From Negaprion brevirostris (lineage: Eukaryota), in NCBI GenBank assembly GCA_030324005.1, contig JARDVH010000146.1:26304108-26368107 (forward strand): a stretch of DNA of 64,000 bases. The letters are read 5' to 3'. The first letter of the stretch is position 1. Every line of letters starts with the position of its first letter. Below, one piece after another: positions 44,401 to 47,400 of the stretch. The position numbers were made by a program.

Positions 44401-47400
44401 GATGCAGAGGGCAAGTACTGGGATGGAACTAGAGAGGAAGGAATTCAGATTTGTGGAATTTAGTTCTGATTTTCTTCTTCAAACGAAGATGGACAAGGAG
44501 GGAGTGCAGAGAGTTGTTCAAAATCAAATCCTGACAGCCGGTTCAGTCAGCAGAGAACTGAGATTGGAGACCTAAAGGATGAGGGCTTACAGAACACATC
44601 ATTATGATCTTAGTTGCTCTTAATTGGAAGGTGGTGACAATTGACTAAACTGTAACTCTCAACGGGGAAAACCGCTTTGGGAAAGGAGTTGGCAGTACAG
44701 GAGCAACTGGATAGCATTTTTCCAGGAGAGACAGATACAGTGGACCCAATGGCATTCCTCTGCGCTGTATTACTGCATTTAGTTCATAGAATCTCGATAG
44801 CGCAGAGGGAGACCATTCAGCCCATCGAGTTTGCACTGACCATAATGCCCTCCTGGCCCTATTCCCATAACTCCATGTATTTACCCTGCAAATCCCTCTG
44901 ACACTAGGATCAATTTTAGCATGGCCAATCCACCTAACCCGCACATCTTTTGGACTGTGGGGAGGAAACTGGAGCATCCGGAGGAAACCCACGCAGATAC
45001 AGGGAGAATGTGCAAACTCCACATAGACAGTGACCCGAGGCTGGAATCAAACCCGGGTCCCTGGTGTTGTAAGGCAGTAGTGTTAACCACTGTGCTACCG
45101 TGCTGCCCCTTCTTGATACCTGGACCATTCTCTGTAACTCCTGATGGCTTTTGTGTAATGTGTAATGGTGGAAGGTAGCCTGATTGGTGAACATTTACCA
45201 TCTGTTTTTCTAAAGATTGTAATTGATGTTTTTTTTCTTTCTAAAACCTTTACAAACCTTCCCAGTCACAACAGCTATGAAATGTTGTGATGTTATGCAG
45301 TTCTGATTGGACTTCATATGTCCTTCTTTTTCTGGAGCTGTTGAGTGCCCAACCCAACCCGGTCTATGGAGGAGGGATAAAATCAGTTCCGAAGCTTCGG
45401 TCAGGGGACAAATCCTGACAATGAGCTGATTGTCCAGTGTTTTCTCCCTCTTATGCAGATGCTCCTCAGTCTCCAGGTACTCTGAGCCGGGAGGCTCGCT
45501 CGACTGCCAACAAGAACCGGATTGTGGCGTTGGAGAAACAGCTCGACATTGAGATGAAGGTGAAGCAAGGAGCTGAGAATATGATCCAGATGTACTCCAG
45601 CGGACCCATCAAGGTAAGGCAGAAATTTCCCAGCATTGAGCTGGCCTTGCTGATGCCTAACAGCTGGTTGAGGTATTTGCTTTTGAGAACGAAGCAGGAA
45701 TAACCTCCTGCTGGGGTGTGTTTAGTGGTGGAGGGAGTGCAGGTGGGTGGGATTTCCTTCACCTGATCATTGGCCATCTCTGTGAAATGTGAAGAAGAAG
45801 AAGCTGCAGTCCCAGCCCTTGGTGACACAAGACAGCCCAATGGCTCACTGCGTTTGAAGCTCTAAAACAATTATAGCAGCTTGAATAGAGAAAAGAAAAA
45901 TGGTTTTGGTCATTTATAATGCTGGAAGGAATCTTCCTGTCAATAAATGACATTAGAAATAAGAGCAAGAGTAGGCCATTTGGCCCCTTAAGTCTGCTAT
46001 GCCAATCAGTAAGATCACTACTTATCTGATTGTGGCCTGGGTTCGGGTGAAGATGGCAGCGGCTGGAGGTCACCCAGGCAATGGGTATGGTCAAGATGGG
46101 AAGTACGGTTTTGGTCGTCTTATATGAGAAAGGATATACTGGCACTGGACAGGGTGCAGAGGAGATTCACTAGGTTGATTCCGGTGTGGTTGCCTTATGA
46201 GGTGAGACCGAGTAGACTGGGGCTATTCTCATTGGAATTCAGAAGAATGAGGGGAGATCTTAGAGAAACATATAAGATAGAAGCAGGGAAGTTGTTTCAA
46301 CTGGCGAGTGAAACTAGAACTAGGGAGCATAGCCTTAAAGTAAGGGGAAGCAGATTTAGAACTGAGTTGAGGGGAAACTTCTTCACAAACAGAGTTGTGA
46401 ATCTGTGGAATTCCCTGCCCAAGTGAAGCAGTTGAGGCTACCACATTGAATGTTTTTAAGGCAAGGATAGATAAATTTTTGAACAGTAAAGGAATTAAGA
46501 GTCATAGTGAGCGGACGAGTAATTGGAGCTCAGTCCACGAAAAGATCAGCCATGATCATATTGAATGGCAGAGCAGGCTCGAGGGGCCAGATGGCCTACT
46601 CCTGCGCCTAGTTCTTATGTTCCTCTACCTGCTTAGGTTTTTCCTTTACCATCTCATCAAACAGAGTGTCAGCTAACTGTACCTCAACTCCTTCATCTTT
46701 TTTGTACTCCTTTCCTGTTTCAACTTATGGCTGTGGAATCTTGTCACCACACAGTCCAGAAAAATACCAGGGTATTTTTCTTTTAATCCCTCAATTCCCT
46801 GGTTTTCTTTTGGCAATTTCACTTCAATAGGCATCACTTGCACCTGTGATCCAGCTATATTGTTTCTGTGAATAAACTATATTCCTGGAATACCCAAGTT
46901 TTCTATTATTTCCACTATCACTCCCTAGTCTTAATTTGACTTTCTAGCGATGTCTTACACAGGGGAACATTACTACTATCTTGGGAAATATTTCAGAAAG
47001 AGTGCAAATATTTTCATCTCTTACTATTCGAGACAGACTAGTTCCCATGTCTCTCAATATTTTAACTTCTTTACCTCTTCTACCTGAGTAAATCTTATCC
47101 ACACAGGTCAAGTCTTTGAAAAGGTCAGGCACTATTTTACAATCCAGCACGTGCCTAGGCTATGCACTCTCCTTCAGTTCCTCAACTTCTCTCTGGATTT
47201 CCTTCACTCCTTCAACTAATCCCACTGTTTGAGCCTCTTTTACCACATCCTTTATCCCAATGCCTTTCTTAAGCCACTAAAGTACTGTGACTTTATGTGT
47301 CCCATCTTATTACAGTGAAAACACCTGAGCTCTTTCACCTCTTTTCCACCCTTTTAAGTTTCTTTTTACACGTGATAAACTGTTCCCAACGTAATCTACT

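What the first reader, a model, noticed from the sequence alone, without database searches (positions are those of the whole stretch)
45440..45620. Intact orphan PKN-family exon lying antisense inside a MACF1 intron
Seen: a stop-free 155-nt exon with a good polypyrimidine/AG acceptor and AAG|GTAAGG donor, encoding 52 aa. Known: the peptide matches the HR1b repeat of PKN Rho-effector kinases, and the DAPQSPG start is PKN1-like as I recall it. I found no other PKN exon (HR1a, HR1c, C2, kinase) in 64 kb, and both splice sites with intronic flanks are retained, so this is genomic DNA and not a processed retrocopy. Inference: a DNA-level duplicated exon (raw material for exon shuffling), or a piece of the true PKN locus mis-scaffolded here. 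The lack of any decay favours a very recent copy or misassembly.
Basis: partly seen in the sequence, partly recalled or inferred. Interest (0 to 1): 0.8.

Follow-up and report, generated by a model that had tools for sequence, protein, structure and literature searches.

The report
Lone PKN exon on gap-bounded contig
A genuine, intact exon of a PKN-type kinase gene lies between exons of an unrelated giant cytoskeletal gene, but it sits on a small piece of the assembly cut off by gaps on both sides, so an assembly error is about as likely as real biology.

Summary
Window 45459-45613 (+) is a 155-nt stop-free exon with a pyrimidine-rich AG acceptor and an AAG|GTAAGG donor. Its peptide is the first helix of the HR1b repeat of PKN kinases: Pfam HR1 E 3.2e-9, and human PKN1 HR1b chains E about 1e-9 with 23 of 37 aligned residues identical. 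No other PKN part was found in the window. The host gene on the minus strand is a spectrin-repeat gene. MACF1 is my recollection and was not tested.

This contig carries no host exon. The host exons on either side (51071-50987 and 38933-38692) join in frame without it.

This contig and its 1.2-kb neighbour are the most GC-rich and SINE-rich contigs in the window. Nothing in the sequence bridges the gaps.

- **Most likely (about 0.45):** an ordinary exon of the true PKN locus on a mis-scaffolded contig.
- **Live rival (about 0.3):** a real, recent DNA-level copy.
- **Unlikely:** a nested or interleaved PKN gene, which has no support in 64 kb.

The window alone cannot decide between these. The same assembly, read depth, spanning reads and RNA-seq are needed. 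Interest is low.

The parts
45459..45613 (+). PKN-type coding exon of 155 nt. It holds 2 nt of a split codon plus 51 codons. It encodes the end of the HR1a-HR1b linker and the first helix of HR1b.
45438..45458 (+). Pyrimidine-rich tract and AG acceptor of the exon
   Evidence: read directly
45614..45621 (+). Donor site gtaaggca after AAG
   Evidence: read directly
42198..48625 (.). Gap-bounded contig of 6,428 bp carrying the exon. GC is 0.436, the highest of 14 contigs, and 18% is SINE. No host exon was detected on it.
42098..42197 (.). 100-N gap on the left of the exon's contig. I read this as an unknown-size gap, which is an inference from convention.
48626..48646 (.). 21-N gap on the right of the exon's contig
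48647..49865 (.). Small neighbouring contig of 1,219 bp with GC 0.420 and 38% SINE. It ends in a SINE copy at the 724-N gap.
49866..50589 (.). 724-N gap separating the two small contigs from the host-exon-bearing contig 50590-59556
44784..45107 (.). SINE copy bounding the unique stretch (45108-45949) on the left
45950..46039 (.). Short LINE-tail fragment in inverted orientation, bounding the unique stretch on the right
46108..46622 (+). LINE 3' end, 82% identical over 541 aligned positions to the copy at 40578-41116. It lies downstream of the exon.
50987..51071 (-). Host spectrin-repeat exon A' of 85 nt. It ends with 1 nt of a split codon and is the upstream neighbour of the intron that holds the PKN contig.
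38692..38933 (-). Host spectrin-repeat exon B of 242 nt. It starts with 2 nt of a split codon and is the downstream neighbour of that intron.
52232..52558 (-). Host spectrin-repeat exon A of 327 nt, phase 0 at both ends

Best explanation
The 155-nt segment is a genuine, functional-looking exon of a PKN (PKN1-like) Rho-effector kinase gene, seen in its native genomic setting with intron on both sides.

It encodes the end of the linker and only the first of the two helices of the HR1b antiparallel coiled coil. Alone it cannot make a domain. It works only when spliced to the neighbouring PKN exons, which are not in this window.

Its position inside an intron of the minus-strand spectrin-repeat gene is most likely an assembly artefact. 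On this reading, the 6.4-kb contig that carries it, perhaps with the 1.2-kb contig next to it, belongs to the true PKN locus. It was slotted into a gap of this scaffold through repeat-borne links.

- **Shown:** exon identity, lack of other PKN parts, gap-bounded contig, the host frame closing without it, and the composition contrast.
- **Inferred:** the mis-scaffolding itself.
For: 1. **Identity and intactness.** Pfam HR1 E 3.2e-9. The only PDB matches are PKN1 HR1b chains, with 23 of 37 residues identical and the whole conserved core kept. Splice sites sit exactly where homology ends. A neutral old copy would be expected to decay. The SINE copies around it are only 73-88% alike.
2. **No sequence continuity with the host.** The contig 42198-48625 is bounded by N runs. 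None of 132 - strand ORFs in 38950-52153 matched Spectrin. Host exons 52558-52232, 51071-50987 and 38933-38692 close the reading frame among themselves, so no host exon is expected on the contig.
3. **The assembly is fragmentary.** There are 13 N runs in 64 kb, 8 of them exactly 100 N.
4. **Composition.**
   - The exon contig has the highest GC of the 14 contigs (0.436), and its small neighbour is second (0.420). The other 12 range from 0.363 to 0.413.
   - The unique flanks of the exon have GC 0.435, reached by 2.9% of 136 windows of 700 bp elsewhere.
   - 1,638 of 2,163 SINE bases lie in these two contigs, which hold 7,647 of 62,286 non-N bases.
   - So the block between the 100-N and 724-N gaps looks like a different genomic neighbourhood.
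5. **Intron length.** The host intron holding the block is 12,053 bp. Without the block it would be about 4.4 kb.
6. **No mechanism for a real insertion is visible.** The LINE 3' end lies downstream of the exon, so this is not a 3' transduction. No repeat or overlap bridges a gap.
Against: 1. **Gap sizes on the right.** The right-hand joins are sized gaps (21 N, then 724 N), not 100-N gaps. By the usual convention, which I am inferring, sized gaps come from read pairs. That would link the exon contig to contig 50590-59556, which bears three host exons.
2. **GC step inside the contig.** Unique pieces left of about 46.1 kb have GC 0.42-0.455 (one 153-bp piece is 0.366). Pieces right of 46.6 kb have GC 0.36-0.39, which is host-like. 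This would fit a real insertion boundary inside continuous sequence.
3. **Gaps and SINEs are not independent.** SINE clusters themselves break short-read assemblies. The coincidence of gaps with the SINE-rich block is therefore not independent evidence of foreign origin.
4. **Same genome either way.** The contig shares its SINE and LINE families with other contigs of the window. This shows the same genome but does not separate the readings.
5. **No direct test was possible.** There was no access to the rest of the assembly, to reads or to transcripts.
Confidence: 0.45

Rival explanations
1. It is a real, recent DNA-level duplication. A fragment of the PKN locus, at least the 0.84-kb unique stretch 45108-45949 and possibly the whole 4-8 kb GC- and SINE-rich block, was copied into the antisense strand of the host intron. 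The exon is then an unexpressed or non-functional orphan that has not yet had time to decay.
For: - The exon and both splice sites are intact with intron flanks.
- Sized gaps of 21 N and 724 N join the contig toward host exons.
- A GC step inside the contig at about 46.1-46.6 kb, with host-like composition to the right, could mark an insertion boundary within continuous sequence.
- The host intron is unusually long at 12,053 bp.
Against: - No host exon or bridging repeat ties the contig to the host.
- No insertion signature was found. The LINE 3' end is on the wrong side for 3' transduction.
- Intactness requires the copy to be very young. A near-identical young copy is also the kind of sequence short-read assemblers collapse and misplace.
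- By my estimate of priors, with no data from here, misplaced small contigs are far more common in gap-rich drafts than intact ectopic single exons.
Confidence: 0.3
2. A true PKN or PKN-like gene is interleaved antisense with the host gene, with very long introns. On this reading the neighbouring PKN exons lie beyond the window, or are too short to detect.
For: - The exon looks fully functional.
- Short exons do escape the Pfam scan: the 85-nt host exon at 51071-50987 was missed.
- ORFs under 34 aa outside the exon's contig were not scanned by Pfam on the + strand.
Against: - None of 444 + strand ORFs outside the contig shows HR1, C2 or kinase. Only 1 of 106 inside does, and that is the exon itself.
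- phmmer and motif scans over all 2,088 ORFs of 20 aa or more found nothing.
- The second half of HR1b is absent from the 3.0 kb downstream on the same contig.
- Such a gene would have to thread at least 45 kb upstream and 18 kb downstream through more than a dozen host exons on the other strand.
Confidence: 0.07
3. It is a processed retrocopy fragment or a chance open frame, not an exon.
For: None beyond the fact that a 51-codon open frame alone is not rare. (61/64)^51 is about 0.09, which is my arithmetic.
Against: - Pfam E is 3.2e-9 and PDB E about 1e-9.
- Homology ends at an AG acceptor and a GT donor. It does not continue into the second HR1b helix, as it would in a retrocopy of the mRNA.
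Confidence: 0.01

Closest known systems
HR1b repeat of human PKN1 (PDB 1URF, 2RMK, 4NKG)
   Same: It is the best and only PDB match, with 23 of 37 aligned residues identical and the conserved core of helix 1 kept. PKNs carry three HR1 antiparallel coiled coils, and HR1b binds Rac1. This comes from the abstract and passages of bioRxiv 10.64898/2026.01.30.702881 seen.
   Different: Only chain residues 4-40 of 82 are covered. Helix 2 is missing, as are HR1a, HR1c, the C2-like region and the kinase. Which paralogue it is (PKN1, 2 or 3) was not tested. 'PKN1-like' rests on the PDB holding only PKN1 HR1b, and on recall.
TOCA/CIP4-family HR1 domain (Pfam PF25610)
   Same: There is a weak match, E 1.7e-4 and 22.3 bits.
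   Different: The match is below that family's cut-off of 27 bits and far weaker than the PKN-type HR1 match. It was not filed there.
Exon movement by LINE 3' transduction or small segmental duplication (exon-shuffling raw material). The concept is recalled; no paper was read here.
   Same: A single exon with its splice sites lies in a foreign intron, with LINE and SINE pieces next to it.
   Different: The LINE 3' end (46108-46622, + orientation) lies downstream of the exon, not upstream as 3' transduction requires. No target-site duplication or poly(A) was looked for or seen. The physical linkage to the host itself is unproven.
Mis-scaffolded or interleaved contig in a draft assembly
   Same: It is a small contig between N gaps, repeat-rich, without any host exon, and compositionally unlike its neighbours.
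   Different: This cannot be demonstrated without reads or the rest of the assembly. Two of the three gaps are sized, which argues for some read-pair support.

Membership tests
PKN-type HR1 repeat (Pfam PF02185) | Sequence match above the curated cut-off | tested here: met
   37.1 bits against a cut-off of 33.1, E 3.2e-9
PKN-type HR1 repeat (Pfam PF02185) | Complete two-helix antiparallel coiled coil | tested here: not met
   Only profile positions 1-27 of 67, and PDB chain residues 4-40 of 82, are covered. Read-through adds 8 residues and 2.5 bits. This is expected for one exon of a split domain.
PKN kinase gene (HR1a-HR1b-HR1c, C2-like, AGC kinase) | Other PKN domains encoded in cis on the same strand | tested here: not met
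   0 of 444 + strand ORFs (>=34 aa) outside the contig, and only the exon itself among 106 (>=20 aa) inside it. Motif and phmmer scans were negative. Exons shorter than these limits could escape.
PKN1 rather than PKN2 or PKN3 | Closer to PKN1 than to the other paralogues | not testable with these tools
   The PDB returned only PKN1 HR1b chains. The linker motif cue is recall only.
Processed retrocopy | Homology runs across exon junctions with no flanking splice signals | tested here: not met
   The match stops at the AG acceptor and the GT donor. The second helix is absent downstream.
LINE 3' transduction | The moved segment lies directly downstream of a LINE 3' end in the same orientation | tested here: not met
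   The nearest + oriented LINE 3' end (46108-46622) is downstream of the exon. The other one (40578-41116) is 4.3 kb upstream, across a gap.
Nested gene in a host intron | A complete transcription unit, or several exons, inside one host intron | tested here: not met
   One exon only was found in the 12,053-bp intron. 845 bases of that intron are N and were not read.
Host gene is a spectraplakin (MACF1 or DST) | A run of spectrin-repeat exons on one strand | tested here: met
   7 of 10 picked ORFs and 16 of 144 - strand ORFs match Pfam Spectrin, best E 8.5e-11. Atlas neighbours are spectrin-repeat clusters.
Host gene is MACF1 specifically | Closer to MACF1 than to DST or other spectrin-repeat proteins | not testable with these tools
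   The PDB gave only brain alpha-spectrin at E 0.016. The Atlas gave unnamed spectrin clusters. The MACF1 assignment is recall.

The most novel reading that the evidence does not exclude
The linkage is real. On this reading, a single intact coding exon of a PKN kinase gene, with both splice sites and a few hundred bases of intron on each side, was recently copied at the DNA level into the antisense strand of a spectraplakin intron. It would be a caught-in-the-act example of the raw material that exon shuffling needs, in a slowly evolving vertebrate genome.
Probability: 0.3. Interest if true: 0.4.

Novelty: already known. Interest (0 to 1): 0.15.

Why it matters
If the placement is an artefact, the practical lesson is for annotation. 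The true PKN gene model in this assembly would lack the first half of HR1b. The host gene would carry a spurious antisense hit. Both are worth flagging to whoever annotates the assembly.

If the placement is real, it is a modest but clean natural example of a single exon moved with its splice sites. It would be useful for studies of exon shuffling, but with no sign of function, because half of a coiled coil cannot fold alone.

Either way, it opens no new biology of PKN or of spectraplakins.

Tried and rejected
- **Whole-frame translations for Pfam.** I used stop-free ORFs by reference instead.
- **Repeat straddling a gap.** Self-BLAST of the contig found nothing on either side of the 100-N or 21-N gaps. 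Reading the gap edges and a tandem-repeat scan also found nothing.
- **Overlapping contig ends.** These could have revealed the true neighbours. No overlap between contig ends was found; the only hits were short repeat-family matches.
- **Retroelement across the left gap.** Degenerate integrase ORFs lie on the - strand near 39.5-40.0 kb. No matching gag or RT was found beyond the gap.
- **Naming the host gene.** The ESM Atlas returned only generic spectrin-repeat clusters. The PDB returned only alpha-spectrin at E 0.016.
- **Retrocopy and chance ORF.** Both were rejected.
- **Contamination from another organism.** Rejected, because the contig shares the SINE and LINE families of the other contigs.

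**Not done or not possible**
Exons were searched one by one.
- The N stretches were left unread.
The open collections hold no vertebrate genomes. So the parent PKN locus, other copies of 45108-45949 and orthologous introns stayed unchecked.
- Supplementary files of papers were closed, and none was needed.
- I do not take the window for human. Identity to human PKN1 is 23 of 37, and the repeat content is of a kind I recall from cartilaginous fish.

Full report
**What is there**

Window 45459-45613 on the + strand is a 155-nt open segment. It is preceded by tgttttctccctcttatgcag, a pyrimidine-rich tract ending in AG, and followed by gtaaggca after AAG. It begins with the last two bases of a split codon and then holds 51 codons without a stop.

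The peptide matches Pfam HR1 (PF02185) at E 3.2e-9, 37.1 bits against a cut-off of 33.1. The match covers only profile positions 1-27 of 67. In the Protein Data Bank the only matches at E<=1 are two chains of human PKN1 HR1b, 4nkg_B and 1urf_A/2rmk, at E about 1e-9. They cover residues 4-40 of 82, with 23 of 37 aligned residues identical and the core of the first helix fully kept.

Reading through the donor adds 8 aligned residues and 2.5 bits. The second helix of HR1b, chain residues 49-82, has no counterpart.

PKNs carry three HR1 antiparallel coiled coils ahead of the kinase, with a linker of about 20 residues between HR1a and HR1b. This is from the abstract and passages of bioRxiv 10.64898/2026.01.30.702881. 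The exon therefore encodes the end of that linker plus helix 1 of HR1b. It is half a domain and cannot fold or bind a GTPase alone.

**Is it alone?**

Yes, within the limits of the scans.
- phmmer of the peptide against all 2,088 stop-to-stop ORFs of 20 aa or more, on both strands, found only itself below E 10.
- Pfam found HR1 in 1 of 106 + strand ORFs (>=20 aa) of the exon's contig. It found no HR1, C2 or kinase domain in 0 of 444 + strand ORFs (>=34 aa) in the rest of the window.
- Pfam found none in 132 - strand ORFs (>=27 aa) of 38950-52153 (25 of 28 weak families were listed) or in 144 - strand ORFs (>=52 aa) elsewhere.
- Recalled kinase motifs gave no credible hit.

The limit of this test is real. 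The 85-nt host exon at 51071-50987 lay inside an ORF scanned and was not detected. Short exons therefore escape.

**The host**

The - strand carries a series of spectrin-repeat exons. Seven of 10 picked ORFs match Pfam Spectrin, with exon borders near profile position 44. Sixteen of 144 ORFs match, best E 8.5e-11.

Around the finding the host exons are:
- 52558-52232: 327 nt, phase 0 at both ends.
- 51071-50987: 85 nt, ending with one base of a split codon.
- 38933-38692: 242 nt, starting with two bases of a split codon.

The frame closes across the three exons. By eye the spectrin-repeat register is complete when compared with the one-piece exon at about 57.1 kb. The host therefore needs nothing from the DNA in between.

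I searched these exons one by one only.

That the host is MACF1 fits my memory of the human protein but could not be tested. The Atlas gave generic spectrin clusters and the PDB gave only alpha-spectrin at E 0.016.

The window has 13 N runs, 8 of them exactly 100 N. The PKN exon sits on a 6,428-bp contig, 42198-48625, bounded by 100 N on the left and 21 N on the right. A 1,219-bp contig follows, then 724 N. Only after that comes the contig with host exons.

The host intron 50986-38934 is 12,053 bp, of which 845 are N. No host exon lies on either small contig (plus the frame argument above). No repeat straddles a gap, and no contig ends overlap. No continuous sequence therefore links the PKN exon to the host gene.

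**Composition**

- The exon contig has the highest GC of the 14 contigs (0.436). Its small neighbour is second (0.420). The rest range from 0.363 to 0.413.
- The exon's unique intron flanks have GC 0.435, a value reached by 2.9% of 136 windows of 700 bp elsewhere.
- The two small contigs hold 1,638 of 2,163 SINE bases but only 7,647 of 62,286 non-N bases.

This marks the block as a different neighbourhood. There are two caveats:
- SINE clusters themselves cause assembly gaps.
- Inside the contig, GC drops to host-like values (0.36-0.39) right of about 46.6 kb. That could equally mark a true insertion border.

The contig shares its SINE and LINE families with the other contigs, so it is from the same genome and is not contamination.

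**Weighing the readings**

*Misplaced contig from the true PKN locus.*
- For: perfect preservation of a constrained exon among repeats that are only 73-88% alike.
- For: the gap-bounded, exon-less, compositionally odd contig.
- For: the over-long host intron.
- For: the absence of any insertion signature. The + oriented LINE 3' end at 46108-46622 is downstream of the exon, which is the wrong side for 3' transduction.
- Against: the two right-hand gaps are sized (21 and 724 N). By convention, which I am inferring, that implies read-pair links toward the host contig.
- Against: the GC step within the contig.

*The alternatives.*
- A real recent duplicate explains the same facts if it is young. 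It cannot be excluded here.
- An interleaved PKN gene would need introns longer than 18 kb and 45 kb threading through the host exons. It has no support.

My estimates are about 0.45 for misplacement, about 0.3 for a real recent copy and about 0.07 for an interleaved gene. The remainder is undecided.

**Known relatives and novelty**

The exon is an ordinary member of the PKN HR1 family. Neither reading of its placement is a new kind of thing.

**What stayed unchecked**
- The rest of the assembly, reads and transcripts.
- Orthologous introns and reference MACF1, DST and PKN proteins.

I do not take the window for human.

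Noticed in passing
window 42513-45107, 49072-49865, 27712-28053, 32952-33134: A SINE family of about 320 bp gives ten hit intervals in the window, 73-88% alike, with GC about 0.49-0.54. Eight of the intervals lie in the two small gap-bounded contigs; one of those (45962-45997, 36 bp) sits inside a LINE-tail fragment and may not be a SINE copy.
   Followed up: partly
window 40366-41121 and 46013-46622 (+): Two LINE 3' ends carry reverse-transcriptase C-terminal-like ORFs. 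They are 82% identical over 541 aligned positions. The first ends in a short 8-bp tandem at 41105-41121. An inverted 90-bp tail fragment lies at 45950-46039.
   Followed up: partly
window about 39473-39997 (-): Degenerate integrase-like ORFs of an LTR retroelement lie here. One of the 132 ORFs scanned matched Pfam Integrase_H2C2 at E 2.5e-8. The tool does not say which ORF, so I placed it by reading the ORFs.
   Followed up: partly
window 50987-51071 (-): An 85-nt host exon was found only by a motif scan and a reading-frame argument. The Pfam ORF scan missed it. Other short host exons of this type seem to lie near 19719, 5983 and 4290, and I did not delimit them.
   Followed up: partly
window 48107-48203: A CT-rich 50-bp tandem repeat, 1.9 copies and 91% matches, lies inside a long low-complexity open frame at 47974-48453.
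   Followed up: no
whole window: CpG observed/expected is 0.27 and GC is 0.373, typical of a methylated vertebrate genome. There are 13 N runs: 8 of exactly 100 N and 5 of other sizes (5, 10, 21, 154, 724).
   Followed up: yes
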